A stretch of 64,000 bases of DNA from Haplodiscus bocki (lineage: Eukaryota). Both the position numbers and the translations under genes were made by a program. The number at the start of each line of letters is the position of its first letter. Position 1 is the stretch's first letter. Shown piece by piece: positions 1 through 61,759 of the stretch. The stretch spans positions 35,464,001-35,528,000 of the forward strand of contig OZ296649.1 of assembly GCA_965655095.1 (NCBI GenBank). Reading direction: 5' to 3'. Below the pieces are notes generated by a model. That model made no database searches. It saw nothing but the letters and a program-made list of their open reading frames with translations, and was not told the origin of the DNA.

Positions 1-1104
1 CACCTCGGAACTAAGATAGATTATCTATTTTTCCAAAGCTCGAGACTCCTCCAAGCGACGGAAATACAGCTCCTACAGAACCAATGTGAACAAGAGCGTA
101 CCCAGATCCTCACTAACCTGATGCTCGCTCTCGAGAATCCCCGATTAGCTGGCTATATGCTAACAGGAAACAGATCCATGTTCCTAGAAACAGACGGCAG
201 CCTTGCCTGGCTTTATCACTGTCCGAAGGTCCACTCTCCACTTCATACGATGAATCAGTGCTATGATAAGATACCTATACTCTACGAAGGTGAAATACGC
301 TTTGTTGACCCGATTACACGACAAACTTACCCTGATGCTGTTCAGCAAAATTGTTCAGATCGAATCAAGAACCTCTTCCAACTCGATATGGACCAAGAAG
401 ATTCCTGGTACACACTCACGCCTGGTATAGTACACCAGGACCGACCCGCTATCTTTGGACCTAAGAAAATAACACCGATGTCTGCGCAGTCTCTCAATGG
501 ATCACAGGATGCCGGCATGTATACAAGAAACGAACTCCGCGGCTTCTGGGACAACATTCTCATTAATGCCGCTTCAAGAACTGCGTTGAAAAAGTTCTCC
601 CAAAACTTGATTATTTACTCTAATTCGCCGGAAGGATCTGACGGATTCCACTATTACACTCCAAGGACTGAATTCCATGTGGATAAGATGATATCTCCAG
701 AATATTTCAAAGATCGATTCATGGATACTTTTGGACCAGTCGCATATTTCCTCGAGCACTGCGGAATCTACTTCTTCGTGTTTTTATTTTTTAAACTTAT
801 AATAGATGTTGTGGTTATGGTAATACGCCACTTAGAAATCTCTAGAATGACCGGTGCATCGCTTGGGTTCGGTAAGACCCTACTTAGTGCGTCGTACAAT
901 ATCTTTCTCACGTCCGTCTTGACTTCAATGTATGATCCACGCGCGCCTCCGCTTGCCGCGATGACGCAAGAAGAAATAACTCTTTGTCATGAGGAAGAGC
1001 TACATGATATGAGAGACACTCCTAAGAAAAAGGAGGAGCATATTTACCCAATCATGAGTCCGGCCCAATTTAACAAAGCCGTGACTCCAATTTCTCCAGT
1101 CTAA
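1..1104 (+). CDS. env: Envelope glycoprotein, class III fusion type (herpes gB / chuvirus G-like); 5'-truncated by the window edge
   Basis: Frame is open from base 1 (HLGTKIDYLFFQ...QNQCEQERTQILTNLMLALENPRLAGYMLTG...DGSLAWLYHC...QCYDKIPILYEGEIRFVDPITRQ...NC). The long helix with Cys, NP motif and C-Y-x-x-I-P / F-x-x-P-x-T-R pattern resemble gB/chuvirus glycoproteins. C-terminal TM segment (GIYFFVFLFFKLIIDVVVMVI) and cytoplasmic tail. Confidence 0.75.
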   Translation, partial: HLGTKIDYLFFQSSRLLQATEIQLLQNQCEQERTQILTNLMLALENPRLAGYMLTGNRSMFLETDGSLAWLYHCPKVHSPLHTMNQCYDKIPILYEGEIRFVDPITRQTYPDAVQQNCSDRIKNLFQLDMDQEDSWYTLTPGIVHQDRPAIFGPKKITPMSAQSLNGSQDAGMYTRNELRGFWDNILINAASRTALKKFSQNLIIYSNSPEGSDGFHYYTPRTEFHVDKMISPEYFKDRFMDTFGPVAYFLEHCGIYFFVFLFFKLIIDVVVMVIRHLEISRMTGASLGFGKTLLSASYNIFLTSVLTSMYDPRAPPLAAMTQEEITLCHEEELHDMRDTPKKKEEHIYPIMSPAQFNKAVTPISPV

Positions 1105-1126
1105 GTTTATCTTAATTCTTTTTTAG

Positions 1127-1747
1127 GCCCAATTACATTCAATCTTTCCCCCGTGTGACGATTGTCTTTCAGTCCTTTCCGACCCAGAAGACGATTTCCG
1201 ACCTCTTACACCTTCTGGCTTGGATCTTCCTACTAGCTCTGAAGTCACATTCTTATCTCCTATTGCCCCTTGCTCACAGATACCGTCTAATCCAGCTTCG
1301 CCTGATGAGCCGCCTTCCCTCACTTTGCTTTCGACTAGTCAGCCCCCAACTATAAACACTGACGTGGCTCCTATATTAATCGGCTCACAACTCCCAATAT
1401 CTTCACCCGAAGTTAGCCGATCCGAAGATACTTCAGAACTCCCTCCCTTTAGTTCCATTCTTTCTGACGTTCGACCTCTTTTATCACGGCCTAATCAACT
1501 CAAACTTAGACCTGATTCCGCTGTCTTGGGACGTCAACACCGCCGTGAATATTATACAAACCATGCACGCAGGATAAGACGCCCCCGCTTTAATCAACAA
1601 TTACAATACTGCCTTAAGCCAGAGTTCTGTAGGTGGGAAATAATCTTTTGGGATGGCAAACGTCAGGAGTATACAATTCAAAACACCTTTCTTCCCTCTC
1701 AGCGATTGGTAGTTCCACCACAAGCCATCACCGCACTTCCTCATTAA
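1127..1747 (+). CDS. Accessory ORF-A of the retroelement (Ser/Pro-rich N-half, Arg-rich C-half), no ATG; probably a spliced exon
   Basis: The frame of track ORF 1220..1747 is open back to 1127, immediately after cttaattcttttttAG (1111-1126). It contains no in-frame ATG. Its stop TAA (1745-1747) overlaps the next ATG. Confidence 0.5.
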   Translation, partial: AQLHSIFPPCDDCLSVLSDPEDDFRPLTPSGLDLPTSSEVTFLSPIAPCSQIPSNPASPDEPPSLTLLSTSQPPTINTDVAPILIGSQLPISSPEVSRSEDTSELPPFSSILSDVRPLLSRPNQLKLRPDSAVLGRQHRREYYTNHARRIRRPRFNQQLQYCLKPEFCRWEIIFWDGKRQEYTIQNTFLPSQRLVVPPQAITALPH

Positions 1748-3126
1748 TGTCGCTTAACCCTCTTGCGCCAGCTTTCCTCCCGCGTCATCAATCTTCATCT
1801 GACCCACCTCTTTCGTTATGCAACTCTAATACCATGAATCTTCCTCTGGCTCAATTAATTTGCGGAATGCCTCCACAAATTACTCCTTCTCATGCTCCTT
1901 CTATTAACCAACACATTGCTGACAACACTCTCCTCCTTCCTCTTCTCCAACCGATAAATCAGTTTACGAAGGACGCTGCCGCTTATAAATCAACTCCCGG
2001 ATCCTCAACACCCCTGCCCTCATCACTCCACCACCAGATGAAATGTCTCCAGGCAATTAACAATAGCATCCAACAGTTTAACCAACACTTGAAGGCCGAG
2101 AAACTAGACAGACAAATTTTACAGCTCGTTGTCCTTCAATTGCAAAATGACTTGGCTGTATTGCGCTACCTGCTCTCCTCCTCGACTGGGACAATCCCCA
2201 ACAAGGATGTTACCGTTAAAGACGCTGCTACTAGTCCTTCACTTGATATTACCGCTAACCCTAACCCTAATGCTAACCCTAACCCTAACCCTAGCTCTCA
2301 CTTTCCTTCCGCTTTCTCGCTTCCCGGCCCTAGAGCACCGACACTTCGCTGTTCTACCCCGGTGGGCGCTGTGGGGACAGCTAAAACAAAAACAAACAAC
2401 ACTGCAAACAACGATTTCCAACCCATACCCAACACGCAAGAAACCACGATACAGAACCTCACATCAAGAATTTGCAAATTGGAAAAACTGTTTGCCAATG
2501 AGGTATCAATGTACACATCAATCACTGCAGGGGTCCATTCTCAGTACTTTTTATTATGTGATAAAATTCGCCAGCTTGAACCTGGCAACTCAGATGTTAT
2601 TATTTGGAAAATCCCCTCAGTGAAGTTTGTCTTCGACTCTGCAAAGGTGGCCCGACCATCATCAGATCCACTCATCGAGCCAGCTACAAGTTTTAGCAGC
2701 CCCATCTTCAGGACCCACCCGCATGGCTACAATTTCTTCATCAAACTCTACCCGTATGGTATCGGACCCGCTACGGGTAAGTGTGCTTCGGTTCTATTCG
2801 CACTCTTCCCGGGAGGCTATGACAGTCTTCTCCAATGGCCCTTCACAAAGACTATTCATATCGGTATTCGAGACCAGCTGGACCCAATGAATACTTGGAC
2901 GAAGACAATCCTACCCGACCAACACCCAGCTTACAAGAAGCCAACAATGTCAACAAAAACTGGAGTTGCAACGATCCTAATCAATAACTTCATTCCCCAC
3001 TACAAACTCTTTAGTGAAACTGAAGGTTTTCTAATTGATGGTGCGAGTTCTGTAGAAATCAAATTTTCTGCTCCTCCTGTGCTGAAACCTCACATCCAAA
3101 CTTCCCTCCTTTTTCCTTTTCCGTAG
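1747..3126 (+). CDS. RING-less TRAF-like protein: PAM2-like N-terminus, coiled coils, C-terminal TRAF/MATH domain (459 aa from first ATG)
   Basis: About 2596-3066 encodes VIIWKIP...FSSPIFRTHPHGYNFFIKLYPYGIG...SVLFALFPGGYDSLLQWPFTKTIHIGIRDQ...AYKKP...FLIDG, matching the TRAF-C consensus (WKI, SPxFYT, GY, YDxLLxWPF, DQ, FKKP). Preceded by a heptad segment LTSRICKLEKLF...KIRQLE. First ATG at 1747; no introns. Confidence 0.88.
   Translation: MSLNPLAPAFLPRHQSSSDPPLSLCNSNTMNLPLAQLICGMPPQITPSHAPSINQHIADNTLLLPLLQPINQFTKDAAAYKSTPGSSTPLPSSLHHQMKCLQAINNSIQQFNQHLKAEKLDRQILQLVVLQLQNDLAVLRYLLSSSTGTIPNKDVTVKDAATSPSLDITANPNPNANPNPNPSSHFPSAFSLPGPRAPTLRCSTPVGAVGTAKTKTNNTANNDFQPIPNTQETTIQNLTSRICKLEKLFANEVSMYTSITAGVHSQYFLLCDKIRQLEPGNSDVIIWKIPSVKFVFDSAKVARPSSDPLIEPATSFSSPIFRTHPHGYNFFIKLYPYGIGPATGKCASVLFALFPGGYDSLLQWPFTKTIHIGIRDQLDPMNTWTKTILPDQHPAYKKPTMSTKTGVATILINNFIPHYKLFSETEGFLIDGASSVEIKFSAPPVLKPHIQTSLLFPFP
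2255..2293 (+). repeat. (CCCTAA)n telomere-type hexamer run inside the TRAF-like ORF, encoding ANPNPNANPNPNP
   Basis: ctaaccctaaccctaatgctaaccctaaccctaacccta. Confidence 0.85.
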
Positions 3127-3154
3127 AGCCCCTCAATCATTTTCACTTCCCTTT

Positions 3155-3164
3155 GAGCGGGGTG
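3155..3164 (+). other. Polypurine tract of the left LTR element
   Basis: gagcggggtg about 30 bp after the TRAF stop, directly followed by AGTTA. Confidence 0.65.
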
Positions 3165-4548
3165 AGTTATCGCGTTATACTTAACGCTTAAACGTTAATT
3201 AATTAAAAGATGATAAATTAAAGCTAACCTTTTGAAGGGACACTGCTGATGTTGTCGTAGGGCATAGAAAATGAATAAAAAAGCTGGAGATATAAACCAA
3301 TGGAGTTGCATAAATATTTTTTATAAAAAATTCTAACGCGAGCTTTTTTCCTATTGGCTCCTGCTGCCAATTCATGGCTGTTACAAGCTTTTTTCCTATT
3401 GGTTGCATGTCATGACAGCATGATGTTATTTTGGAGTCGATCTGGGAAACGGGCTTGAACATAACTCACTTTCCCGTTCAGCGGACGGGACGCCTTACTC
3501 CTCTTCTGACTTGCTTACCTTACTTCTCCCTTTCACTTGGACAAAATTATTCTAGGTCCAACTCCTCTTCTCTCTTCTCTCTTGGAGAAAATTTTCTAAG
3601 TCCAATTCCTCTTCTCTCTCCTCTTGCACGAAATTATTCTAAGTCCAACTCCAATTTTACAAAGATTTTCTAAGACAATTCTAAATTCTGTCTTAGTCGC
3701 AAAACCAATTCAATTCTACAAAATTTTTCTAAGACAATTCTAAATTCTGTCTTAGTCGCAAAACCAATTCAAATCTGCGAAAATTTTCTAAGTCCCAGCT
3801 TTCTTCTGACTTAGAAAAATTCCCTTCCTTTCATTTACCTTTTACATACTCTTGCCATTGGAGTCTAAACGATGTCCACTGACGCTAGCTTCGGCATTGG
3901 CGTGTGCGGGTTCCGTGGATGAACTTATGTTCTGAAGCTTGAGTGAATCTTAAATATGCACGACCCCCCACGAGGTTCTTAGGCAAAGAGAATTGACATT
4001 ACTCATAGATCATTCTCACCTCGTCTGCTTCCATGGTCTTTAGAATTTATTCTAAATTCCGAGTTATGGATTAAATACGCAGAAACCGTCCCTTCCTGAT
4101 TCCCATAATTCCATTCTTTGCTTTGATTTGAAATTTCCTACTCAATCCTTTCGCAAGTCAGATTCATAAGAGGAGAGTCCCTGAGTTATCAACAGATCAT
4201 CCAGTCCCATCGACGGTAACCGTTAGTTAAACAGTTTTCCTAGTTCAGACAGAGTATATCTCTCTGATCAATTTTAACATTTCATAAATCCCTTCCGTAA
4301 CACCCGCTAGACAAAGTTCTCGGTTGGAAAGAAAGGGACTAAGAAAATATCACCAGGTTACCGCCACAGAGCGAGTTATCACCTGAGTACTAGACAAAAT
4401 TAGAACAAATCAAACCCCGCCAATAAATCCGGTGACTTAATCACGGTTTGGGCAATCGGGAAAATAGGAGCACAACCGGTCGCTACGCTGAAGCCAGTAC
4501 CGAGTGTAGACCAAAGTACAAAAGGTTACATATAACATAACGTTAACT
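3165..4548 (+). repeat. Putative 3' LTR (~1.38 kb) with AGTTA...TAACT termini
   Basis: Starts agttatcgcgttatac; ends tataacataacgttaact (imperfect inverted termini). Contains repeated ttttcctattgg (reverse CCAAT) motifs, tandem repeats and aataaa near 4422. The partner LTR is not in the window. Confidence 0.6.
3530..3800 (+). repeat. Tandem repeats in the LTR: three ~45 bp units then two 59 bp units
   Basis: aaa(a)ttattctaggtccaactcc-like units at about 3543, 3588 and 3631; ttttctaagacaattctaaattctgtcttagtcgcaaaaccaattcaa at about 3666 and 3725. Confidence 0.8.
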
Positions 4549-5823
4549 AACAAAATAAAACAACAAAAAGCCAAAACTTCCCTAGAAAACAGGCCCAGAA
4601 AAACTAGAAGAACAAAAGTCTTCTATCTGGCCTACAGAAAAAAGAACTACTAGACATTACTTTACCTCCAAAAATTATCTCCATCAGTCATTGAGAGTTT
4701 TTATAAATAATATCTTACATTTTGTCATTTGAAATTTGTATGTCTTTTGATATTTTGGACTGATTTTATTTATACCCAAAAAATTGGAGATTTTATAATT
4801 TTCACATTATATCTTGATCGTTGCATAATTTGCGATCTTCATTTTTTCAGATGATTACATTTCTCGAATCTTCTGTCGTGGGTAAAAGTTGAATTTATGC
4901 TTGTTGGGGCTGTTTAAAATAAAGGGATTTAATGTTGAATCGTATAAGGGAAATGTTTTGTAAAATTGTATTTCAATAATAATTTTTGTTACTGCTGCTA
5001 AAATTATTCAAAGGGAGACTGAAATTTCCCTCGTTCCCACTTTTGCTACTATCACTAATGCGTGAATCATCATCCATTAGCGCAGTCCTTTCATTTCCCA
5101 TTTGATTATATTTGCTTCCCCGGTTGACTGAATAATTGATTATTTCATTTTCTATTTTCCCCTCATCGCTCATAAAGTCCTTGCTTTGAACTTACGCAAT
5201 CTTTGTTCGCGAGGCCTGCAAGGCACCTGAGAGTAGATCAATAAAAGCCCCTGAGACTTATTTTCATTAAACAAAACAACTGCTGCGGCGCCACGGCTGT
5301 ATTGATCTAGCTAACAAAAGGAATACTAATCACCTGCAGCACTCAGCTAGGAAGAAAATTGGAACTAGAGAAAGAATTAAATTCAAGCATTAGTAATATA
5401 ATGTTCCCCCCTACTCGGCCTGCGACAGAGTCAAGACTTCTACCAGTATGCAACTTGAGGAGTATGAAATACAATATTACGCATGAAAAATGCAAAACTA
5501 TGAAGGTAGATTTTTATAGCTGCCACGATGGGAATAAAAAACATGCATTTTTTTGAAACGCATAAAACAAAATCCGATCAATACGTTGATAACAGCTTTA
5601 TCTCATGGGCTGGATACTTAATTTAAGTACAAAAACTTTTCACGACATCTGATTTTTTGAATAAATCATAAATGGAGATTCATAACAGAACTGTCAGCAG
5701 TAATTTCTGGGAAGAGCACAAATACTAGGTCTTAGAAACTCCTATTGCAGTCTTTTGTTTATAGATAGTTTTAGTTTTATGAAATGTTATGGGGATGATG
5801 GTAAAACGGTCCCGCACACCCAC

Positions 5824-28418: not shown

Positions 28419-31400
28419 AATTCCAAAACAATTCAATTTCACCCACATTAAATCTTGATTGATCACTTTTCAAAGCGCCTCGATGCCTAACTGGCATTTT
28501 CAGTGCCAAGAAATTGAGGAATTTCAGGCGTGAAAAGATGAAACCCACCACGTTTGGGTCTGAAGACTCGCATCTCAGGAAAACTGCGGTGACACACCGA
28601 AATTCTCCCAAAGTCACCGTTGCAATGGTTCATAAGACGAGATGTGCAATGGTTCATACGACGAGATGGGAATAGGTCAATTAGAGACCTATACAGAGGT
28701 ACAGGACTGAGGAAAGGAATTTCGAGAGCTCATGCATTTTTCCGACAGTACTTTGTTAAGCCCTGCTCTTAATCAACCAAAAGGTGATTTTTCAAAATTG
28801 TGCGAAAAGAATGGACCAATGAAACGAATTGCACTGATCACCATTGAAACGTAAAGTTAACTAGCACACAGGCCGCTTTAACCAGTGAAATACACTAGTT
28901 AACTGATCGTGACTTAACTAAATCTCACCGTGCATGACTTTAAGCACCAAGAGAATTAACAGTGCAGCACCTCAGTATTCTAGAAAACTATGATGAGCCT
29001 TACACGCATGGGTAAATTCAACAAAGATTCACCTGGTTGTCTTACATTTCTAGAAACTTTTGAGGATGAAAAAAAGTTCTCCAACTAGGTTAGAAACGGA
29101 AGGCAAAGTAAACTTTAACGGTTCGTACACGAAAAACTCATGCACCGCTATTACTTGATTTTTCACCGGAAAGCGCCAGCCTTCCCTTGGATCTATGATA
29201 GAACATTCAAACAATTTTACGCTGAATCGTTAATACATCTGATGTAGCAACATGCGTAAAACGTGAACTAGAAATCCAAATTGAAAAATTTGACTTCATT
29301 TTTGAGTATGACAATTGAATTAGCATTTTTTCGGCACATAATTGAGCACTTTGGCTATTACATTACATTGACACCTCAAATTGAAGCGCAGTTGATTAAT
29401 GTCTGATGCAAAACACCTTCAGTGTTGACTTTTCCTGAGAATGAACAATATCGTTAACAATTATAAGTGAGCTAAAAGCTTCGTGTTGGTTATTTTCCCA
29501 TGGGTGGTTTCCCCAAAATTTAATGTCACCATGTCTGCTTTGAAACACAAACGTGATCGCTCGGTGTCTTCGTGAAGCTGTTCCTCAATTTAATCAAAGC
29601 TAAGCAATTTAGGCAAACTATTTTCATATACGGAGGGCTAAGGTTCTAAGGGCAGGCAAACGCTAGGTAAATCATTTAAGTAAACGTGAAGCACCATTGT
29701 ACCAAATACTAAACCTTGAGAAGCCACCGTTTAATCTCCGCCATTCTGTCAGCGGAAAACGACTTGAACACATCGGCGACGAATTGGAAGGTAACTTTTC
29801 GACCTTCCACTCAAATACGGATAAGTCAAAATATTCGAGTTTTGTACTATATCAGGATGTAAAGATTCACATGTCTCCTTCAGAAATGATATTTGTTCCT
29901 GATTCTATACTACTCCAACGTATATATTCAGTCAGTTCGTCAATTGAGTCGATAGTGCTTTTTCTACTCGAACCAAATCGTGAGAAAATGAAATTAATTC
30001 ACTCCAAAAACTGAATACTCAGTTGAAAACGACCCTTCCAACGACTTCACTGATTTAGGTAGCAATGCAAACGACCGGTAACCAGTCAATTCATCTACAG
30101 ATCGTTTTTTCAAAAATGGCATTGCTGTCTCTTGAAGATAGTTGCTCCCGGAAGACCCCTATTATCATTGAAAAACTAATATCATGACTTTGACTAATAG
30201 TTTCACGCGAAAGATAGCATTGCTTCCAAAAGGATATTGCCAATAGAGTCCATCCCGGACGAATCCCTACCTTCATCGTTGTTGTTTCTGAAGCTTCCAA
30301 TTCATTAGCGAGATAAAACTAAAATCCAGAACTGCGATAATGAATGATGTCATAGCGACTTCCGTTACGTTTGGAAACTAGCCAACTCCGCTACAGTGGG
30401 AAACTACAGCTCAGTTTTTCACCAAATTCTAATCGGTTCATCTCCATTTTCATCAACCTTTCCAGCCAACGTGGTCTATCAAGCGTTCTCTTCACGGTGC
30501 TTATGTCATCATCAGAACTGCTTCAACACTAACAATATAGCATGCAAAAGTGTTTTGACAAAATATGCATTAAATAAAAATCATCTCATCTGACGAGAAA
30601 GCTATAACTTTCAATTTTGTCTTTTAGGAAGGAAAAACTCATGAAAAAGTCCATTTAGTGTATTTATCTGATTCTTGTTCAAGGATATTTCGATGCGATA
30701 GAATGTAAATAAGAGTCGCAGTAGCGCAAAACTTTCATCGCAGCGGCGGCACTAGGAAAATCATACGATCAATACACTTGTTTCAATTGAATGTTGAAAG
30801 AGTCACGCTCTTATTCAGTACTTCGAAATAATTTCGTCAATTGAATCCAACTAATTTGTAATTAACAGGATAGGTCTCAAAGTATCAATATTAATAACCC
30901 CATAAACAATAACCAGACATTTAAAAGGAATCAAGGTATCCAGAAGCTTTGATGACTTCGTTCACTGCCGTTATTTTGAGAAGGGTAAAACTCATTCTGC
31001 TTGGATCGCTTCTACAACTTTTCTAATCATCTGACAGCGTGATAAAAAACGAAAGAAGAGCATAAAATGACGCAAGTCCACAAGCATGCCTGTACGCATT
31101 CTTGATCAGCACGCTTTAGGGACCGGTTTTAGCATAAGAGTGAATTACTAAGAACTTTTTTTCATTTGAAACCACGCAAAGGAGCATTTTAAGAAGACCT
31201 TTTGCTTTGAAATCAAACCAACTAGATTTCGAAAATACAGGCATCGAGAATCCCAAGCATTAAGTGGGTATGAATTTAGAAGGGTAAAAAACGAAACTGA
31301 GAATTTCAGAAAAATTTGAAAAAAAACACGGAAAGTAAGACCCGAAATAAAAGTGAGAAATTTGACAAGTTCTACTTCAACACTTCAGGTAATTGAAGGG

Positions 31401-34400
31401 CAATAATGACATTGACTCGAGCAGGAGGAACGCAGAGAAATTTAACAAACCTATGATAAAAAATAAGAAAAAATTGTTCCGCTTGACTATATCTCTCAAT
31501 CAGTCAGTCAAAGATTCCCAAATCGAGAAAAAAAATCTATAGGCCTAACCTTGTCAGCATGATGCCTTAATATTTTGGACCTACGGTCCAAAATTTAGTG
31601 ATTAGCACCGTTATGCGTCTACAAAAAAGCAAAGTTTTTTAGGTAACACCCTTTGCGTATTCCGAACCTTGAGGGCAGCGCCGATTTTGAGCACTCAAGT
31701 CTCTGCCTAACCATACATCTACAGTAGCTTCTTTTTGGGTAGTCAGGGGAAAATAGATCAAATTGGATGTACTTTTTTAACCTGCACTTTTGCAACTTGC
31801 CAATTTCAAAGTCAAAAAGACTGGTAGGAAAGTGGATGAAAATTGTTCAACCAGGCAAACTATGTCTTAATAAGACAATTACGGCAGTCACAACTCTTTA
31901 CTCAGACCAGATGCCAAGGGAAAACTCCTCAAAATTGATGTTCAACTGACGGACCGTCAAGCAAACGGTGAGCAGAATGACCGCCACCAAATCCGAGTGA
32001 ATCAAAACTAAGATGTCCGGTCACAACGAGAGGAATTCGTTCCGTCCGAAACGGAAAGAGGTCATCGGCAACCAGTTCAGTCAAACTTTTCTAGCAGTAG
32101 GAACCGAGGATTACGGTCAAGTAACAACAAAGGTAGTGCATTAATCCAAATGAAGGGAGCCTTAGAACCACCTAAATAAGTTAAGCCTGAAGCCGAAACA
32201 AATGTCCGAAAATCTGAATTCATTTTCATGACTGAATTGAACACATTTAATGAAAAGATGGCCCGGGCAATGACCCCATTTCAACTCCCATTGGAATTAC
32301 AGAGAAGTAACGATGACCTTATACCTCATACCTACAACAGATTTCAAAACCCGACATCTACGAGATTCGGCATTATATTCAGAGACCACAAGGTGGTACT
32401 GACGGTCATTTTACGTGAATGGATGCTGAGCGTCTTACAATTCCAAAACAATTCAATTTCACCCACATTAAATCTTGATTGATCACTTTTCAAAGCGCCT
32501 CGATGCCTAACTGGCATTTTCAGTGCCAAGAAATTGAGGAATTTCAGGCGTGAAAAGATGAAACCCACCACGTTTGGGTCTGAAGACTCGCATCTCAGGA
32601 AAACTGCGGTGACACACCGAAATTCTCCCAAAGTCACCGTTGCAATGGTTCATAAGACGAGATGTGCAATGGTTCATACGACGAGATGGGAATAGGTCAA
32701 TTAGAGACCTATACAGAGGTACAGGACTGAGGAAAGGAATTTCGAGAGCTCATGCATTTTTCCGACAGTACTTTGTTAAGCCCTGCTCTTAATCAACCAA
32801 AAGGTGATTTTTCAAAATTGTGCGAAAAGAATGGACCAATGAAACGAATTGCACTGATCACCATTGAAACGTAAAGTTAACTAGCACACAGGCCGCTTTA
32901 ACCAGTGAAATACACTAGTTAACTGATCGTGACTTAACTAAATCTCACCGTGCATGACTTTAAGCACCAAGAGAATTAACAGTGCAGCACCTCAGTATTC
33001 TAGAAAACTATGATGAGCCTTACACGCATGGGTAAATTCAACAAAGATTCACCTGGTTGTCTTACATTTCTAGAAACTTTTGAGGATGAAAAAAAGTTCT
33101 CCAACTAGGTTAGAAACGGAAGGCAAAGTAAACTTTAACGGTTCGTACACGAAAAACTCATGCACCGCTATTACTTGATTTTTCACCGGAAAGCGCCAGC
33201 CTTCCCTTGGATCTATGATAGAACATTCAAACAATTTTACGCTGAATCGTTAATACATCTGATGTAGCAACATGCGTAAAACGTGAACTAGAAATCCAAA
33301 TTGAAAAATTTGACTTCATTTTTGAGTATGACAATTGAATTAGCATTTTTTCGGCACATAATTGAGCACTTTGGCTATTACATTACATTGACACCTCAAA
33401 TTGAAGCGCAGTTGATTAATGTCTGATGCAAAACACCTTCAGTGTTGACTTTTCCTGAGAATGAACAATATCGTTAACAATTATAAGTGAGCTAAAAGCT
33501 TCGTGTTGGTTATTTTCCCATGGGTGGTTTCCCCAAAATTTAATGTCACCATGTCTGCTTTGAAACACAAACGTGATCGCTCGGTGTCTTCGTGAAGCTG
33601 TTCCTCAATTTAATCAAAGCTAAGCAATTTAGGCAAACTATTTTCATATACGGAGGGCTAAGGTTCTAAGGGCAGGCAAACGCTAGGTAAATCATTTAAG
33701 TAAACGTGAAGCACCATTGTACCAAATACTAAACCTTGAAAAGCCACCGTTTAATCTCCGCCATTCTGTCAGCGGAAAACGACTTGAACACATCGGCGAC
33801 GAATTGGAAGGTAACTTTTCGACCTTCCACTCAAATACGGATAAGTCAAAATATTCGAGTTTTGTACTATATCAGGATGTAAAGATTCACATGTCTCCTT
33901 CAGAAATGATATTTGTTCCTGATTCTATACTACTCCAACGTATATATTCAGTCAGTTCGTCAATTGAGTCGATAGTGCTTTTTCTACTCGAACCAAATCG
34001 TGAGAAAATGAAATTAATTCACTCCAAAAACTGAATACTCAGTTGAAAACGACCCTTCCAACGACTTCACTGATTTAGGTAGCAATGCAAACGACCGGTA
34101 ACCAGTCAATTCATCTACAGATCGTTTTTTCAAAAATGGCATTGCTGTCTCTTGAAGATAGTTGCTCCCGGAAGACCCCTATTATCATTGAAAAACTAAT
34201 ATCATGACTTTGACTAATAGTTTCACGCGAAAGATAGCATTGCTTCCAAAAGGATATTGCCAATAGAGTCCATCCCGGACGAATCCCTACCTTCATCGTT
34301 GTTGTTTCTGAAGCTTCCAATTCATTAGCGAGATATAACTAAAATCCAGAACTGCGATAATGAATGATGTCATAGCGACTTCCGTTACGTTTGGAAACTA

Positions 34401-36461
34401 GCCAACTCCGCTACAGTGGGAAACTACAGCTCAGTTTTTCACCAAATTCTAATCGGTTCATCTCCATTTTCATCAACCTTTCCAGCCAACGTGGTCTATC
34501 AAGCGTTCTCTTCACGGTGTTTATGTCATCATCAGAACTGCTTCAACACTAACAATATAGCATGCAAAAGTGTTTTGACAAAATATGCATTAAATAAAAA
34601 TCATCTCATCTGACGAGAAAGCTATAACTTTCAATTTTGTCTTTTAGGAAGGAAAAACTCATGAAAAAGTCCATTTAGTGTATTTATCTGATTCTTGTTC
34701 AAGGATATTTCGATGCGATAGAATGTAAATAAGAGTCGCAGTAGCGCAAAACTTTCATCGCAGCGGCGGCACTAGGAAAATCATACGATCAATACACTTG
34801 TTTCAATTGAATGTTGAAAGAGTCACGCTCTTATTCAGTACTTCGAAATAATTTCGTCAATTGAATCCAACTAATTTGTAATTAACAGGATAGGTCTCAA
34901 AGTATCAATATTAATAACCCCATAAACAATAACCAGACATTTAAAAGGAATCAAGGTATCCAGAAGCTTTGATGACTTCGTTCACTGCCGTTATTTTGAG
35001 AAGGGTAAAACTCATTCTGCTTGGATCGCTTCTACAACTTTTCTAATCATCTGACAGCGTGATAAAAAACGAAAGAAGAGCATAAAATGACGCAAGTCCA
35101 CAAGCATGCCTGTACGCATTCTTGATCAGCACGCTTTAGGGACCGGTTTTAGCATAAGAGTGAATTACTAAGAACTTTTTTCATTTGAAACCACGCAAAG
35201 GAGCATTTTAAGAAGACCTTTTGCTTTGAAATCAAACCAACTAGATTTCGAAAATACAGGCATCGAGAATCCCAAGCATTAAGTGGGTATGAATTTAGAA
35301 GGGTAAAAAACGAAACTGAGAATTTCAGAAAAATTTGAAAAAAAACACGGAAAGTAAGACCCGAAATAAAAGTGAGAAATTTGACAAGTTCTACTTCAAC
35401 ACTTCAGGTAATTGAAGGGCAATAATGACATTGACTCGAGCAGGAGGAACGCAGAGAAATTTAACAAACCTATGATAAAAAATAAGAAAAAATTGTTCCG
35501 CTTGACTATATCTCTCAATCAGTCAGTCAAAGATTCCCAAATCGAGAAAAAAAATCTATAGGCCTAACCTTGTCAGCATGATGCCTTAATATTTTGGACC
35601 TACGGTCCAAAATTTAGTGATTAGCACCGTTATGCGTCTACAAAAAAGCAAAGTTTTTTAGGTAACACCCTTTGCCTATTCCGAAACTTGAGGGCAGCGC
35701 CGACTTTGAGCACTCAAGTCTCTGCCTAACCATACATCTACAGTAGCTTCTTTTTGGGTAGTCAGGGGAAAATAGATCAAATTGGATGTACTTTTTTAAC
35801 CTGCACTTTTGCAACTTGCCAATTTCAAAGTCAAAAAGACTGGTAGGAAAGTGGATGAAAATTGTTCAACCAGGCAAACTATGTCTTAATAAGACAATTA
35901 CGGCAGTCACAACTCTTTACTCAGACCAGATGCCAAGGGAAAACTCCTCAAAATTGATGTTCAACTGACGGACCGTCAAGCAAACGGTGAGCAGAATGAC
36001 CGCCACCAAATCCGAGTGAATCAAAACTAAGATGTCCGGTCACAACGAGAGGAATTCGTTCCGTCCGAAACGGAAAGAGGTTATCGGCAACCAGTTCAGT
36101 CAAACTTTTCTAGCAGTAGGAACCGAGGATTACGGTCAAGTAACAACAAAGGTAGTGCATTAATCCAAATGAAGGGAGCCTTAGAACCACCTAAATAAGT
36201 TAAGCCTGAAGCCGAAACAAATGTCCGAAAATCTGAATTCATTTTCATGACTGACTTGAACACATTTAATGAAAAGATGGCCCGGGCAACGACCCCATTT
36301 CAACTCCCATTGGAATTACAGAGAAGTAACGATGACCTTATACCTCATACCTACAACAGATTTCAAAACCCGACATCTACGAGATTCGGCATTATATTCA
36401 GAGACCACAAGGTGGTACTGACGGTCATTTTACGTGAATGGATGCTGAGCGTCTTACAATT
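28419..36461 (+). repeat. Head-to-tail tandem duplication of a ~4020 bp unit
   Basis: 28421-32440 and 32441-36459 are near-identical (about ten differences seen); identical short ORFs recur at a 4019-4020 bp offset. Confidence 0.97.
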
Positions 36462-46695: not shown

Positions 46696-49058
46696 TTACA
46701 AAAATTCTCGTTTCACTTCAGATTTAAATTGAATGGGGTTTGTAGTTATATCCATCGACGTCTTTTCTTGAATAAAGTTTGCATATTTGCTAGCTCGGAA
46801 GAAATTATGTTCACTCTTCTTTTTATTTGTATATGGAATATCAAAGGTAATCGAATCGTTACTCCGCAGAGAATATATAGAAGGTAATTTAGCTGTAATA
46901 TAATCACTGACAGGAAAGTCAAAGCCACCATTAATTAATTTGTTGAACATTACAACAACCTTTTCTATGGCATGTTTAATCGGAAGCACTTTCAATATCA
47001 AGAGGCGATTTTGGTAACCAGTTGCAGAAACAGCCCAGCGAGAAACGCATTTTTGGAATCTTTCCAGTTTATCTAAATCGCTTTTTGACGGATACCAAAA
47101 TTCTGAGGCATAAAGAAGTACTGGTAAAATGAAAGTCTTATATAATTTTGATTTCAAGGAAATATTAAGGTGAACTGGAAGATTAGGCTTCAGCTGATGA
47201 AAGGTATTGTAACAGGATTTTAAGCACCAAGTGAGCTTGCAGAAAACATAAATTCCTAGATCTTTAACGAATTCAGATGAATTATTTTCTTTTTCGTTGA
47301 AAAGTAGAGGTGAGTGTGGTTCTTTTCCAATAAACAAAAACTGAGTCTTAGCAGCATTAAATTGCATCAAGTTTATTTTCGACCATTCAACACAAGAATT
47401 TAAATTAGATTATAAGCTCGGCATGGAATTACATATCACTTTATTGTCGTCAGCATACAAGAAAAAAAACGACGAGTTACATACATCTGGAAGATCGTTA
47501 ATGAAGATCACAAATAATAGAGGCCCTAATGAAGAACACTGCGGAACACCGCTTGCAACTGAGGCATGTTCACTGAAAACATCACCAACTTTAACACATT
47601 GATAGCGGTCAGATAGGTAAGAAGAGAAGAGTTTTAATAGTCCACAACCGATACCAAACTTCCTCAATTTGTCAAGCAAAAAAAAATGAGGGACTTTATC
47701 AAAAGCCCTGCTAAAATCCAAATAGCAACAGTGAGCTGTTAAATCGTTGTCGTGTGAAAGATATAGTTCATCCAAGAAAACTAGAAGTTGTAAATTGGTA
47801 GATTTGTTTTTCAGAAAGCCATACTGATGTCGATGAATTTTGTTGCAAAATTTTCGTCAATTAAATGAAATAAAATTTGTTCAAAAGCAAGCGACAATTT
47901 TGACTGTATACCGATAGGTCTATAGGAATTAATAAAGTTACGCGGACCACTCTCGTATACTAGTCTGATGTGCGACATTTTACAGTTTGATGGGAAACAT
48001 GAGGTTTGGGTTAAATGAACGAAAAGTTTCAATACAAGGAAACAATTGTCCGAAGCACATGAAGAGAGAAATGAACCCGGAATTCGATCCAAACCACAGC
48101 CCTCTTTTGTTTACCACAATGCAGAATACACAGCAGAGAAAGTTATAAGAGCACTGTTGAAAAAGTCTTCGGAAAAGTCACCATAAACATGAGCTGGTTT
48201 CTCAAAAGATTTGACAAAGTACGCATTAAAGGCATTAGCTATAGTAATAGGACAATCAGTTAGAAGTTTATCTTCACCAGGCAAATAAAAAGACTGCGTG
48301 AGGCTGTTAGATTTCAATGCGTTAAGGAGTCTAAACGAACCGTGAAGACCACCATTAGACTGACAAAATTGTTCCAAAAAGAGATCAGTATCTAATTTAA
48401 TGGACTCTTCGTAATCTTTATCCAATGAATAAGGATAATTAGATTGAGACTTAAGGAATTTTCGGTAGTACCTCCGAAAAAAAGACCATATCAAATCAAG
48501 CATGTGATTACTATTATGGCTGAGGCGGTCCACTATTAGATGAAAATTTTGTTCTAGCAAAAAGTCAATGAGGGAGCAAAAGCTAACGTCACGTGTGTGA
48601 TACGATTCAGCTTCAAAATCAGGTTGATTGGAATCACCCATAATAAGTGTTTTCGTGCGTTCAAAGCTACGGAGAAGGGATTCTAAGAACCTTTTAATAT
48701 CAAGTGGATTAACACGGTAAGGACTAATTTTAGAAGGATTGTAAAAAATAACAATCAACAGAGGAAACCCCAAATTGATTACGGCAGAACAACAAAAGTC
48801 AGTTTTGACAGATATAGCGTTCAAAGAAATACCATTCCTTCTAATAATAGCTGTACCTCCATGACTTCCGCTTTTCCGATCAGTACGACTGCCAACAATA
48901 TACTCGGAAGAAATAAAAAGGTTAACATTCAAGGAATTGTCTGAACAGGTCTCTGTTAAACATGAAGAATCAAAATTATGAGAATGCGCGAAGGTAATAA
49001 GAGAAAGACGTTTTGAAAAACTTGCTATACTTCTGGAATTTAGCAGACCCAGTTTCAA
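46696..49058 (-). pseudogene. LINE ORF2 (APE endonuclease + reverse transcriptase), disrupted
   Basis: LLNSRSI, CLTET, RTDR..GGTAI, MGDSN, LDL (APE); YRPI, YLDFSRAFDKVPH, SGVPQCSSLGPLLFVIFIND, YADD, KDLGI (RT), split over four ORFs. Confidence 0.92.
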
Positions 49059-49067
49059 AGTAAGTAG

Positions 49068-57286: not shown

Positions 57287-58861
57287 TCCCCCCGCTGGAA
57301 CCTGAAAAGTATTGATGAGTGGAGAACGCAAACAAAGAAGACCAAAGAAGCAGGTCAAGAGCTTCAGGAGAGCATAAATTTATGGGTATAGTTGCAACGT
57401 CCGTTTTCAGTAAGAAAACCGTTTGCTTAACTAGGTGTGCACAAAGGGCAAGGCAGGTGATTGTCGTGTAGCTCCTGCAAACCGGTCAACCCACTGTGGT
57501 CATTAGCTGCTCGATGGACTGGTTGTGTGAACACTCGTTTAATATTCTTGACAAAGGTTATTAGGCGGGAAGCAGCAAAAGCTTCGTCTGTCGTGGAACC
57601 CGTCTTGTCCTGTGCAGGTGCGCATGAGGGTGTTGGCGTATTGGGATAACGTGGCCGTATCTCCAGAATTTTTACAACGATGATAATGATAGAGAGTATC
57701 ATCTGGAGTAGAGGCAGCAGACAGGTCAGTGCGCAAAGAATGAAGATTTGACTGCAGCAGTTTGCTTAGCGCTTTGATTAGGAGTTGTCTGCATGGCTCA
57801 ACCGAGTGCGCAAAGAGTGGATCTCCTCAGTTTAATTAAAGGAATCTTTCATGAGACTGTTATGGGTAGGGCTTAGATCTTGCTAGGAAACGGGCAGCCG
57901 TTGAACATCTGTGGTAAACTTGTCTTTGGACGTATGAGCATCAATCAAGGCCTTTTCAGATTCGGAGTACATATCACAGTAGATATGGCTTCTTGGCGGT
58001 CTTCCTTCAAAGTGGTCTCAGTTTGGTTAAGTGACGAAAATTCAGTGTTAAGATTAACCCATGTGTAATGAGTGGTTGTTCTGTCGAAGTCTGCCCGGAC
58101 AGACACGTCAATGACTTCTGCATCAGCCTGTATAGAAGTGTCCTCGACGTCGGGCAACACAGCAGGAAGAAAAGTTGTGGGAAAAAACAGTTGTCGGAGA
58201 AAAAGTTAACCGAGTCCGCAGATTCTGCAGTGGGATTCTGAGGGCAACTTAATTTGGTGAATCGAACGCATCGGGCGATACCGCGTAATACCTTTTTTGA
58301 ACGTAGACGGTGTCAGACTCAAAGCGAACCTTAGTGACACGGTTCTGTAGGTTTTTTACTGAGAAGACGTGATCGTTGACGGCAAAAGGGTGGACGCGAC
58401 GAGAACTCGTGAGGACATTCGATTGAACTGCGGGTGGACAGTTGAAGAAGTTGAAAGACGACCTGAAACAATGGGACGAATACATCAGGAGAAAAATACT
58501 TAGAATTAGATAAGTAATCGTAAATAGGACATAAGAAAAGAGAAAATAGTGAAACTTGCATACAGGAACGTATGTTAAGCAAGGATAATGTCATGAAGAA
58601 GGGGACGTGAGCATGAAAATGTGGTTTGAAGTGCTGAAAAGCGTCTGGATGAATGGCACTAAATCATGCCAAGAGCACTGGTATGGAAAACCAGAGAACA
58701 ACGTCGAAGATCTTGAACTCGGAAACGTGTTGGAAGGGCATCACGAAAAGTGATGACAAGAAGTAAAAGAGACTGGTAAAGAGGAAGGGGTATAGTAAGG
58801 TGACTGTTTCATGTGGAGGTTTCAGTATAGATAGAAGCAATAAAGGAACGGTACAAAAGAT

Positions 58862-61000
58862 TCAACGAAGGAGTATGTTTAGAAAAGTTAGTATGAGGAG
58901 GGGCGTTCTCATGGGGGTGCGTAGAATGAAGAAAAAAGTTCGGGTTGACAGAAAGCGTTTGATGTAGGGCTGCCTGTGCAAGAGCCTGTGGAGCCTGGAC
59001 TTCAGAAACAGAAAAGTAATGAAAAGAAGATTCCTTTTCGGTGTAAGGATTGCCTTCCACAAAGTGCATAAATCGTCTCGAGGTGCCACGGAAGAAGTTT
59101 CGGGGTGCGTGAACAACCGCCTCCACTGTCGGAGAAAAAGCGTGAAACCAATGCACAAAGTCAGGACTGAGAGGGCGATGGAGATGAGGTAAAAACGGAC
59201 TGCTGTGCGGGTAGGGAGACAGGAGAACAGAGCGGCTGATGTGGTTTGAGGTATGGATGACTGACACTGTGCGATGGTTCGAGTGAGTTCAACAACGGTA
59301 TCACTAGACATGCGCTTAACGTTAGAGAGTTCTGCTAAGTCAAGGCAAACACTACTGAGGATGGATTGACATGCTTCATCAAGAGAGTACCTGAGAAGAT
59401 TGTGAGTAGCCTGGCGAACATGTTGGACGAATTGTTCGAAGGGTGGTGTAAGCTGGATGGAGGCGAGTAAAGGCTCCAGGTTGGTTTTGCAAAAAATGAT
59501 GATGAGTTCCAATGCTCCTTGGTTAAACAAGAGTGTACAGAAAGTAGAGAAACCAGTACCACTATCAATTTTCATTCAAATATTACGGTCACGAGAGATA
59601 ATACGATATATGCCATCAGCTGAACAGAAGTCTCGAGGGGCGTCCTGTAGGACAACAGATTCAACTTTACAATTACGAGGGACAGGAATGTCGTTTTTTT
59701 TATAATAGAAGGAAGGCAAAGAAAGAAGTGTTTCGTCAATTGTAGTGGAAAAAAATTGACGGCAAACTTTAGTGAGATTGCTTCTTGAGTGTCTTTGAAG
59801 ACTGAAAGCGCTGAGTTCAACGAAATGAGATTTATCGGTGGAGACTGCATCAAAGGTGTTCGGAAATTGGTACAGGGAAGCCGCATCGCCATCGTCGTTA
59901 GGTTGGTAAGGAGGAATTCCTTGAAAGATATTGCAGGCCTCTATGGGATTTTCAAGGACAGCAGAGGTACCCGTGGAAAGGAAAGCGACTTTTAAGACCA
60001 ACTGAGCATCATAATAATAAATTGCTTCTTGGCCGGTACGGATAGGAGTGGAGTGTTATCACCCTCGCATGGACTCGAAATTGACGAGCTCTTTCGATAA
60101 CATAGCCAACTGACAGGAGACGAGAAATTGAGATGTAACGTAACCAGCTTTGAGTGAGGAGGTTGTGGAAAAGAGGACAATTTTGTCTCCAAATTAATCG
60201 GCTCGGTAAGCTTATATGTTTGTGTACAGTGTTCCCAAATGATCCACGTGGTTTCGGCTCTGCCGAACAAAGATCATATTTTGTGTGAGGTGTACAGTGC
60301 CTGCGGACAATGCAACAGTTACGCCTTTAAATTCAAGTAACTCAGTTTGAAGGAGTTTCTACGGACCACCACATTTTTCCGTTACTTTCTGTACACTTTT
60401 TTATGTATTTCTTCAGTTCCCAGAATAAACAACTTCTCGTCGTTCTTTGTCCGTACCCATTCCAAAAAACCATGGAAGTGTTTTTGAATCGACATAACTT
60501 GGCCAAAAATTGCTTCCAGATCTTGTTGTTGGTGCAAAGATTAAAATTGGAGAGAGCTGAAGGTGCAGCTTCTTTCATTGGATTTCCATGAACCAGTCCT
60601 GTGGCACCTGCGGCCGCAGCTACTAGTTGCACTGCACGTTTGCTGCGGGCTGTGCCATGCTCATGCTTCGCAAAACTAGGCAGAAACCTCGGCCAAATGT
60701 TTTTGATCTGTGTGTGCAGCCTTGATCTCTTTTTGTATCAGGGAAAATATTACCATCCATCTGGTCAATTAGTTGGTCATATAAAGTGCCCATGCGCTCT
60801 GTTCAACAATGTCTGATTGTAGCCATGCCAGTCATCGAGTCGGTGTTGCCTCGTGTATGAAGAACTGCATAGTCACCAGTTAATTTGATCAAGGGAATCT
60901 TGGGGAACGGTGAAAACACACGAGCCTGGTTCTTACTCTCTGGCTTTATTGCCTGTTACTTGAAATAAAATGCAGCACATTTCCTAAACAAAAGTTTGTC
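58862..61000 (-). pseudogene. env: Envelope glycoprotein, class I fusion type (baculovirus F / errantivirus / paramyxovirus F-like), frameshifted
   Basis: Furin-type RSKR (60647-60636) followed by AVQLVAAAAGATGLV; Cys-containing ectodomain fragments; TM FYLISIALSVLTLCIGFTLFL followed by RQWRR. Confidence 0.7.
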
Positions 61001-61759
61001 CTTAGCTTCGCTGAAATGGGTGGTAAAGTGAAGATCTGCGAGAAGACCACGGAATGGAGCATAGGAAAGAAGTAGAGACAAAGTGGCTTGTCACGGCTTC
61101 TGACGTGCAAGGCTCCTGAAGAAACGGAATACCAGGAAATGACTCGGCACTGATAGTTGGCTGTGACGAAGTCTTAGTGCGGGCTACAAACATTCAATGG
61201 AATTCCGATTTTTTGGATTTCTTTGGGGACAAAACGCCAATGAGATCGCGTGGTTAACGAGTTTCGTGGAGTGGTTCCACTTTGAGTTGGACTGTTGTGC
61301 TTTGTCGAAGAGTACGTGCGGGAGGGCAATGTAGATTTTGGCCAGCTTTTTGAAGATGGCGCTTAGCCTTCTGGATGATGCTGTTGACAAGGAAGAGACA
61401 AAGTTCGATCGATGGGAGGCCGTAAACTAGCCAAAGCACGGTTGTTCATCAACAGACGGAACTGAAGTTGGTTCACAAAGGAAAGTAATGGGTGGGGACG
61501 ATGTTTTTGCCGGGATGTTGGAGGCATTCGAGGAATCAAGCGAAGACCGCGGAGACCTGAAAGGACGTGAATGGGATATAATCGAACCAGCAGGGCTCGA
61601 TGGAGGGGGCGGTTTTTTGGGGAAGGTACTAGGCAAGTTGGCGGCACGCTGCAAGAAGATTACAACACAAAGATCGTGGTTAATGGGCCTTGAAGGCTGC
61701 TGCGTCGGGTTTTTTCCGTTGACAGGTTGATGCTCGGGTATGCTAGTTGGGCGAAGAGG

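What the first reader, a model, noticed from the sequence alone, without database searches (positions are those of the whole stretch)
1105..1760. Complex-retrovirus-like expression: splice acceptor opens ORF-A, and a TAATG stop-start couples it to the TRAF ORF
Seen: 22 bp after the env stop is cttaattcttttttAG|GCC. A 206-codon frame with no ATG opens exactly at 1127, and its stop TAA (1745-1747) shares its last A with the first ATG of the TRAF ORF. Established: UAAUG overlaps drive termination-reinitiation in influenza B BM2 and in the SART1 retrotransposon. Inference: a spliced subgenomic, bicistronic mRNA produces ORF-A (with its AUG from an upstream exon) and then the TRAF protein by reinitiation.
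Basis: partly seen in the sequence, partly recalled or inferred. Interest (0 to 1): 0.78.

Follow-up and report, generated by a model that had tools for sequence, protein, structure and literature searches.

The report
Retrotransposon splices out its envelope gene
A large virus-like jumping gene cuts its envelope gene out of its RNA as an intron, which supplies a start codon to the next gene and appears to create one message from which several small genes, ending in a captured signalling-adaptor (TRAF) gene, are read in series.

Summary
The stretch is the 3' end of a ~19.7 kb Ty3/gypsy-type LTR element with a chuvirus-like env. The missing AUG was found 1.37 kb upstream of the window: ATG-GTT-GAG then a GT donor, in phase with the 1126/1127 acceptor, so env lies inside a 2,496-nt intron. 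Splicing left a record in the genome: 15 copies lack exactly this span, arising repeatedly, while none of 18 other deletions has GT..AG ends. Donor and AUG hold in four families, the acceptor in six. ORF-A is under purifying selection (dN/dS 0.22) and ends in a small beta-barrel. The stop-start contact persists in five families (TAATG, TGATG, ATGA, stop+2 nt). Reinitiation is not shown: no TURBS- or SART1-like signal was found. Instead AUG is the most or second-most depleted triplet over the upstream small ORFs plus ORF-A (13 of 13 copies, four families) but not in env, those start codons are weak, and TRAF has a conserved strong second AUG. This favours a polycistronic, leaky-scanned mRNA like rice tungro bacilliform virus, with reinitiation a possible supplement. 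No RNA data; the mRNA's 5' end is not located.

The parts
1..1104 (+). 3' half of env (chuvirus/Monjiviricetes-like fusion glycoprotein). Lies inside a 2,496-nt GT-AG intron whose donor is upstream of the window (last exon base G000:C2:35462630, i.e. 1,370 nt before window base 1), directly behind ATG-GTT-GAG (M-V-E). In this copy env is broken near its 5' end.
   Evidence: PF24664 E 2.5e-26; donor; intron size; break
1105..1126 (+). 3' splice site: branch-point-like CTTAAT, T-rich tract, AG at 1125-1126
   Evidence: exact joins in 14 of 14 junction copies of families 1-2 and 1 copy of family 4
1127..1747 (+). ORF-A exon 2 (206 codons): acidic Pro/Ser-rich low-confidence N-part, Arg-rich helix (about residues 131-147), C-terminal small beta-barrel (about 152-205)
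   Evidence: dN/dS 0.22 whole, 0.10 barrel; alignment over six families; model pLDDT about 90 for 161-200; fold hits weak, Z<=4.0, Tudor/chromo/KOW/SH3/integrase-CTD-like
1653..1712 (+). out-of-frame 19-codon ORF in strong AUG context inside ORF-A; with those at 1305 and 1563 an obstacle to simple leaky scanning in this family
   Evidence: ATG kept in 22, 24 and 24 of 24 intact close copies
1745..1749 (+). TAATG stop-start overlap (TGATG, ATGA or stop+2 nt+ATG in other families)
1747..3126 (+). TRAF-like ORF, 459 aa, C-terminal MATH domain (residues about 286-438), no RING/zinc-finger hit
   Evidence: PF21355 E 3.7e-16, PF22486; best solved relatives are TRAFs, E 4e-13
1834..1836 (+). second in-frame AUG of the TRAF ORF (codon 30), purine at -3
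   Evidence: codon 30 with purine -3 in 28/30, 18/20, 10/12 and 8/20 copies of families 1-4; 7 more family-4 copies have it at codon 26
3154..3162 (+). polypurine tract
   Evidence: sequence
3163..5427 (+). 3' LTR, TG...CA, 97.7% identical to the 5' LTR about 17.4 kb upstream

Best explanation
The element is a ~19.7 kb env-bearing Ty3/gypsy-type LTR retrotransposon. SHOWN (genomic evidence): a GT-AG intron removes env; splicing joins a 3-codon AUG micro-exon (M-V-E) to ORF-A in phase; such spliced RNA was packaged and re-integrated repeatedly; ORF-A encodes a selected protein. INFERRED: a subgenomic mRNA that starts just before small ORF s2 (internal promoter, or a further splice to a conserved TCAG just upstream of s2) carries s2, s3, s4, s5, ORF-A and the TRAF ORF in series; because internal AUGs are cleared and each start codon is weak, 40S subunits are shared out by leaky scanning (helped by reinitiation after very short ORFs), the strong codon-30 AUG of TRAF catching those that get through. 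Removing AUG-rich env is what puts ORF-A and TRAF on this path; env itself has a strong AUG and its own TATA-like box and candidate acceptor inside the intron. The TAATG overlap may add termination-reinitiation at TRAF codon 1. INFERRED, weak: ORF-A is a nuclear regulator of the element (Arg-rich helix plus Tudor/SH3-like barrel, Rev/Tat- or CERV-like role); the RING-less TRAF protein acts as a decoy in host TNF/Toll signalling.
For: Donor with AUG at -9: 19/19 unspliced family-1 copies, GT 20/20 and AUG 18/20 in family 2, 12/13 and 12/13 in family 3 with different intron letters, 16/20 in family 4. Intron-less copies: 14 of 40 scored hits span the junction, 14 of 14 join exactly, tree needs 7 changes, 6 forced by starred branches; one more in family 4; 0 of 18 other distinct deletions have GT..AG ends. 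AUG rank 1 of 64 triplets in 10 and rank 2 in 3 of 13 copies of families 1-4; 3.9-7.3 per kb against 16.5-20.3 in env/TRAF, binomial p 2e-3 to 4e-6 (copies within a family are not independent). Per ORF in the window's element obs/exp 0-0.45 for s2-s5 and ORF-A, 0.96-1.59 for gag, pol, s1, env, TRAF; family 6, with no TRAF ORF behind its ORF-A-like frame, is not depleted (1.05-1.39). Long-ORF start codons on the path have a pyrimidine at -3 in the three copies listed; gag and env have a purine. Codon-30 AUG. Precedent: RTBV (PMC5902531, passages).
Against: No RNA evidence: no run on record as RNA. The intron-less copies are genome-length, with the M-V-E AUG more than 10 kb behind AUG-rich gag-pol, so they are not the translated mRNA; its 5' end is not located. 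Family-1 ORF-A keeps three out-of-frame AUGs, one in strong context 94 nt before TRAF. The path is 1.8 kb with five ORF starts, twice the RTBV length (900 nt), so pure scanning would give little TRAF. Family 5 shows only mild depletion over the path as I drew it (rank 18 of 64, p 0.019), although its ORF-A has no internal AUG, and its ORF-A AUG lies downstream of the acceptor. A pyrimidine at -3 is forced wherever a stop abuts the AUG, so weak context is partly a by-product. Recombination between copies could inflate the count of independent intron losses; the junction has 3 nt of microhomology. ORF-A function rests on Z<=4.0 fold hits.
Confidence: 0.55

Rival explanations
1. One reading: same splice, but TRAF is made chiefly by termination-reinitiation of ribosomes that finish ORF-A (and perhaps a chain of such hand-overs from s2 onward).
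For: Stop within 5 nt of the TRAF AUG in five families with four geometries: TAATG 28/30, family 2 19/20 (18 TGATG, 1 TAATG), ATGA 12/13, family 4 20/20 (11 TGATG, 9 ATGA), stop+2 nt 7/8. Stop directly abutting the next AUG at s2/s3 in families 1, 3, 4 and s3/s4 in family 4. TRAF codon 1 is in weak context yet its N-terminus is conserved. UGGGA at -98 in all 64 intact copies of five families.
Against: Does not explain AUG clearance inside ORF-A and s2-s5. No drop in synonymous divergence before (pS 0.62 vs 0.55 overall) or after the overlap (0.43 vs 0.46). No stable fold up- or downstream (z -2.0 to +1.8 in 15 copies). The UGGGA is a Trp-Asp codon pair of the barrel and lies outside the 40-87 nt TURBS span given in PMC5902531. 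The barrel ends 3-5 residues before the stop, so tight packing plus shared ancestry can give the same geometry; in family 4 one C/T difference switches TGATG and ATGA.
Confidence: 0.27
2. HIV-like scheme: each small ORF and the TRAF ORF gets its own multiply spliced or internally promoted mRNA; overlaps and AUG scarcity are by-products.
For: Candidate acceptors exist after pol, before s2 and before env; TATA-like boxes inside the intron in families 1, 3, 4; one family-4 copy joins the 3' part of gag to the same acceptor; multiply spliced RNAs lacking a packaging signal would leave no genomic copies.
Against: No conserved acceptor before TRAF: the AG at window 1701 is absent in family 2; only one T>=5-AG in 7.7 kb; AUG depletion is specific and repeated; the gag join has a GC, not GT, at the matching place of an unspliced copy.
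Confidence: 0.13
3. ORF-A and TRAF are made as one fusion by -1 frameshifting into the TRAF frame, which is open 38 codons upstream of its AUG.
For: Open upstream TRAF frame in families 1-2; family 6 has the ORF-A barrel fused in frame to a coiled-coil-like tail.
Against: That extension evolves neutrally in the TRAF frame (dN/dS about 0.9) while the same bases are constrained in the ORF-A frame (0.07); it is closed within 0-5 codons in 9 of 12 family-3 copies.
Confidence: 0.03
4. The intron-less copies are DNA-level or template-switch deletions, and the acceptor is not used.
For: 3 nt of microhomology at the junction; other deletions with microhomology are common.
Against: Same GT..AG borders in 14 copies on separate branches and at the homologous borders of a family with different flanking letters; 0 of 18 other deletions are GT..AG; acceptor kept in six families even where the AUG moved downstream.
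Confidence: 0.02

Closest known systems
Rice tungro bacilliform virus (Caulimoviridae) expression strategy (PMC5902531, passages)
   Same: Consecutive ORFs with short overlaps, cleared of internal AUGs and read by leaky scanning; splicing fuses a short AUG-bearing ORF in frame to a distal ORF.
   Different: Here an integrated LTR element, AUG-poor path of 1.8 kb with five starts lying after pol, not before it; the intron removes only env; the spliced RNA stays polycistronic; untested experimentally.
Burro/GYPSM1 giant gypsy-like elements of planarians (PMC6431247, passages)
   Same: Large gypsy-like element with MATH/TRAF-C domain and a glycoprotein similar to mononegavirus fusion proteins; very high copy number.
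   Different: Burro holds these in a ~5,000-aa polyprotein with env between gag and pol and BIR/BCL2 domains; here separate ORFs, env after pol inside an intron, TRAF last. Relationship not tested by tree.
Anakin (BEL/Pao with chuvirus glycoprotein; PMC7642597, passages)
   Same: Env captured from the chuvirus/Monjiviricetes group.
   Different: Backbone here has gypsy-type Pfam hits; no accessory ORFs or splicing seen in the passages read.
SART1 non-LTR element, caliciviruses, influenza B BM2 (PMC10275272 and PMC5902531, passages; the SART1 paper itself was not held)
   Same: UAAUG or AUGA stop-start contact.
   Different: No downstream hairpin or TURBS-range signal detected; upstream ORF is AUG-depleted, which those systems do not need.
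Cer1 CERV of C. elegans (PMC10309623, abstract) and complex retroviruses (foamy virus, WDSV: recalled)
   Same: LTR element with a regulatory protein from a spliced mRNA; accessory ORFs behind env.
   Different: No sequence relation tested; ORF-A function unknown by experiment; polycistronic chain not described for them in what I read.

Membership tests
Ty3/gypsy (Metaviridae-type) LTR retrotransposon | gag plus pol in the order PR-RT-RH-IN | tested here: met
   (PR hits weak, E 0.016; RT, RH, IN strong; Retrotrans_gag 1e-6)
Ty3/gypsy (Metaviridae-type) LTR retrotransposon | direct LTRs with TG...CA ends, PBS and PPT | tested here: met
Ty3/gypsy (Metaviridae-type) LTR retrotransposon | 4-6 bp target-site duplication | tested here: inconclusive
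   flanks of the window's copy do not match; no other copy had both outer flanks fetched
Ty3/gypsy (Metaviridae-type) LTR retrotransposon | RT phylogeny within Metaviridae (versus Retroviridae, BEL/Pao, Odin/Loki) | not tested
   no reference RT set was fetched
Troyka | CG...CG termini | tested here: not met
   TG...CA against PMC12440569 (first part read)
Anakin | chuvirus-like glycoprotein | tested here: met
   PF24664
Anakin | BEL/Pao backbone | tested here: inconclusive
   no Pao-type Pfam family listed for gag or pol, but no tree
Burro | MATH/TRAF-C domain | tested here: met
Burro | env in frame between gag and pol in one giant polyprotein | tested here: not met
   separate ORFs, env after pol
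Spliceosomal GT-AG intron | GT donor, pyrimidine tract and AG, removed precisely | tested here: met
   (genomic copies, not RNA reads)
TURBS termination-reinitiation | stop and start within 20 nt | tested here: met
TURBS termination-reinitiation | structured 18S-pairing element within about 40-87 nt upstream | tested here: inconclusive
   UGGGA at -98/-113 coincides with Trp codons; no fold or synonymous constraint; host 18S not examined
SART1-type coupling | stable hairpin shortly downstream of UAAUG | tested here: inconclusive
   120 nt downstream z -1.3 to +1.0 in 15 copies; a small hairpin could be missed
Termination-reinitiation (any) | downstream ORF depends on termination at the overlap | not testable with these tools
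   needs reporter or ribosome profiling
RTBV-type leaky scanning | upstream ORFs cleared of internal AUGs, weak start contexts | tested here: met
   strongly depleted, not fully free
RTBV-type leaky scanning | one capped mRNA carries the ORFs and downstream output falls when upstream starts are stronger | not testable with these tools
   no RNA or translation data
Tudor/chromo/KOW/SH3-like barrel (ORF-A C-terminus) | structural match above background | tested here: inconclusive
   best Z 4.0, rmsd 2.6-3.7, 45-53 aligned; Foldseek best E 0.16; no Pfam hit

The most novel reading that the evidence does not exclude
A group of animal-type enveloped LTR elements runs an operon-like accessory cassette: one spliced subgenomic mRNA with up to six cistrons, translated by leaky scanning plus stop-start hand-over, in which env is nested as an intron that works as a switch (retained: env, excised: nuclear regulator ORF-A and a TRAF decoy), and env-less spliced genomes re-integrate and spread repeatedly as a built-in intracellular form.
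Probability: 0.4. Interest if true: 0.85.

Novelty: new variant of a known kind. Interest (0 to 1): 0.74.

Why it matters
Polycistronic translation of many long ORFs is rare in eukaryotes and known mainly from plant pararetroviruses and a few viruses. A high-copy LTR element that seems to do it with up to six cistrons, with six related families as natural variants, makes the choice between leaky scanning and stop-start reinitiation testable, and shows that a UAAUG overlap alone should not be read as reinitiation. Precise, repeated loss of env by splicing is a simple route from an enveloped to an intracellular retroelement. The intron-less copies also show that splice junctions can be proved from a genome alone. 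Thousands of TRAF/MATH hits in this genome are element-borne, which matters for counting host TRAF genes.

Tried and rejected
RNA evidence: no RNA holder listed; four runs of unknown kind, contigs only, showed no GT..AG joint among the 15 joints displayed, 463 not shown: no evidence either way. Frameshift fusion ORF-A/TRAF rejected. A second acceptor at window 1701 rejected as not conserved in family 2. TURBS or SART1-like structure not found. ORF-A: no Pfam family; Atlas hits under 0.9 (Ets/IRF) are leads only and disagree with the fold search; 183 profile hits among 1.84 billion representatives carry no annotation and were not traced to other organisms. Small ORFs uORF, s1-s5 have no Pfam hit above cut-off. 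Five of the 20 MATH loci fetched (L064-L066, L068; and the deletion forms L071-L073 for the junction counts) were left out of the family-3 counts because they lack the env/ORF-A region; L046 was left out of the tree (large ORF-A deletion); L086 has env but no ORF-A or TRAF hit. Troyka membership rejected. Earlier-findings look-ups returned nothing. Literature searches for the scheme found no paper describing a split-AUG, env-in-intron, AUG-cleared cassette in an LTR element; the library lacks most subscription papers and Repbase, so absence from print is not shown. The host organism was not established.

Full report
Observation. The upstream ORF is a Monjiviricetes/chuvirus-like fusion glycoprotein (PF24664).

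The element. The genome is 1.5 Gb; the stretch has over a thousand candidate matches (1,209 at first look). Neighbouring DNA shows a ~19.7 kb element: 2.3-kb LTRs, TG...CA, 97.7% identical; a 113-aa ORF; gag; pol (PR, weak macro-like insert, RT, RH, IN); small ORFs s1 (140 aa), s2 (73), s3 (73), s4 (127), s5 (114); env; ORF-A; TRAF ORF. Env of this copy is broken near its 5' end. I sampled six families, defined by similarity to the window: 1 (94-96% nt), 2 (ORF-A 72-80% nt), 3 (TRAF ORF 30-35% aa), 4 (ORF-A 40% aa), 5 (ORF-A core about 36% aa, shorter TRAF) and 6 (env 34-46% aa, no MATH). Samples are best hits, not random draws.

The missing AUG. Ten bases after the s5 stop and about 290 before the env ATG stands ATG GTT GAG followed by GTGAGT, the only AG|GTRAG in 7.7 kb, as the acceptor is the only T>=5-AG. 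Nine coding bases give phase 0, matching the acceptor. It is present in 19 of 19 unspliced family-1 copies; GT in 20 of 20 and ATG in 18 of 20 family-2 copies; in family 3 as ATG GTG GAA|GTAAGA, GT 12 of 13, ATG 12 of 13; in 16 of 20 family-4 copies as ATG GTA GAG|GTTAGA. The acceptor is kept in 29/30, 20/20, 12/13, 20/20, 8/8 and 4/4 copies of families 1-6 and opens the ORF-A frame in phase 0 in families 1-4 and 6; in family 5 an ATG lies 4 nt behind it. No donor was located for families 5 and 6. Three contigs of one metagenome show the same acceptor, and two of them the overlap; they may come from the same kind of host.

Splicing is recorded in the genome. One fetched copy lacked env exactly from the GT to the AG. 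A search with a natural junction found 14 full-span matches among 40 scored; all 14 join exactly. The four examined at length carry gag, pol and the small ORFs, and one was followed from LTR to LTR. On a tree of the downstream exon (63 rows) the intron-less state needs 7 changes, 6 forced by starred branches; recombination could inflate this, but families 1 and 2 both have such copies and a family-4 copy lacks the homologous 2,407 nt. Small clades of intron-less copies suggest they transposed again. Of 18 other distinct deletions none has GT..AG ends. The junction has 3 nt of microhomology, so a template switch is not formally excluded, but it would not hit these borders again and again. One family-4 copy joins the end of gag to the same acceptor; the matching place in an unspliced copy reads GC, so a second donor is possible, not shown.

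ORF-A is a protein. Intact in 24 of 30, 8 of 20 and 7 of 13 copies of families 1-3. Between families 1 and 2 dN/dS is 0.22 overall and 0.10 in the last 51 codons; the overlapping upstream extension of the TRAF frame is neutral (about 0.9). The model has a low-confidence N-part, an Arg-rich helix and a confident C-terminal beta-barrel whose best matches are weak and of Tudor, chromo, KOW, SH3 or integrase-CTD type (Z<=4.0). A nuclear regulatory role is inference only.

The overlap. Stop and TRAF AUG stay within 5 nt in five families: TAATG 28/30; TGATG 18/20 plus one TAATG; ATGA 12/13; 11 TGATG and 9 ATGA of 20; stop+2 nt 7/8. This fits coupling, but also tight packing behind a barrel that ends a few residues earlier. 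Signals expected for known reinitiation systems (PMC10275272 and PMC5902531, passages) were not found: no synonymous constraint on either side, no stable fold in 15 copies. UGGGA lies at -98 in all 64 intact copies but is the Trp-Asp codon pair of the barrel.

AUG clearance. In the window's element AUG triplets are scarce in s2-s5 and ORF-A (obs/exp 0-0.45) and not in gag, pol, s1, env or TRAF (0.96-1.59). Over the path from s2 to the donor plus ORF-A, AUG is the most depleted of 64 triplets in 10 and second in 3 of 13 copies of families 1-4, start codons included (3.9-7.3 per kb against 16.5-20.3). Family 5 is weaker (rank 18), and family 6, without a TRAF ORF, is not depleted. Starts on the path have a pyrimidine at -3, gag and env a purine. 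The TRAF ORF has a second in-frame AUG at codon 30 with a purine at -3 in 28/30, 18/20, 10/12 and 8/20 copies, though its N-terminus is otherwise divergent. Terminating ribosomes do not need AUG-free upstream ORFs; scanning ones do. This is the design described for rice tungro bacilliform virus, which also splices a short ORF onto a distal ORF (PMC5902531, passages). Against it: three conserved out-of-frame AUGs in family-1 ORF-A, one strong; a path twice as long as in RTBV; and the 5' end of the mRNA is unknown, since the genome-length spliced RNA cannot be scanned from its cap. A conserved TCAG just before s2 in families 1-4 could be an acceptor or a start site.

Verdict. Splicing out of env and the split AUG of ORF-A: about 0.95 and 0.85. 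TRAF reached mainly by scanning 0.55, mainly by reinitiation 0.27, by its own mRNA 0.13; the first two can coexist. Gene content has precedent: MATH/TRAF and a mononegavirus-like glycoprotein in Burro (PMC6431247, passages), chuvirus env in Anakin (PMC7642597, passages), a spliced regulator in Cer1 (PMC10309623, abstract). The expression layout was not found in six literature searches of a library that lacks most subscription papers. New variant of a known kind; interest 0.74.

Noticed in passing
L031:8690-8760 (inside the env intron); same place in L058 and L077: Two TATA-like boxes, repeated GC-rich motifs and a candidate acceptor lie between the donor and the env ATG in families 1, 3 and 4: env may have its own internal promoter or splice.
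   Followed up: partly
L031:7388-7440: Conserved 2-codon ORF, TCAG and a second very short ORF just before the s2 AUG in families 1-4; in family 4 the short ORF ends in a TAATG overlap with s2. Could sort ribosomes past s2.
   Followed up: partly
L032:7917-8258 and L087:2317-2727: The 113-aa ORF before gag shares an LNCPWTIT stretch with a 136-aa pre-env ORF of family 5: a small-protein family used at two places.
   Followed up: no
L043:2497-2940: Family 2 carries an extra 73-codon ORF between s2 and s3, again stop directly before AUG; s2, s3 and this ORF are all 73 codons and may be paralogues.
   Followed up: no
window 2257-2292: Telomere-like (AACCCT)n run inside the TRAF ORF, coding Asn-Pro repeats; 2-8 units among 30 copies, length changes mostly in frame.
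   Followed up: partly
L071-L073: Family-3 deletion derivatives (3,477 nt, not GT-AG) that join the env N-terminus region to the MATH domain; three copies share the breakpoint.
   Followed up: partly
L074-L078 (family 6): ORF-A barrel fused in frame to a coiled-coil-like tail (up to 362 aa), no MATH domain, env directly after pol: a simpler relative.
   Followed up: partly
L031 pol residues about 373-432: Weak macro-domain hit (E 0.0011, below cut-off) between protease and RT.
   Followed up: no
L079 and L129: Tandem arrangements: L079 repeats part of env, ORF-A and TRAF; in L129 a TRAF 3' end precedes the 5' LTR (elements sharing an LTR).
   Followed up: no
window 28419-36461: Tandem duplication of 4,023 bp at 99.75% identity; recent duplication or assembly artefact.
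   Followed up: no
window 46696-49067 (-), 58000-64000 (-): Decayed LINE-like piece (endonuclease, E 9.5e-5) and a decayed LTR-element piece (integrase C-terminus, E 4.4e-7).
   Followed up: partly
L064-L066: MATH hits without element genes nearby, 32-37% identical to the element's domain: candidate host TRAF genes and possible donors.
   Followed up: no
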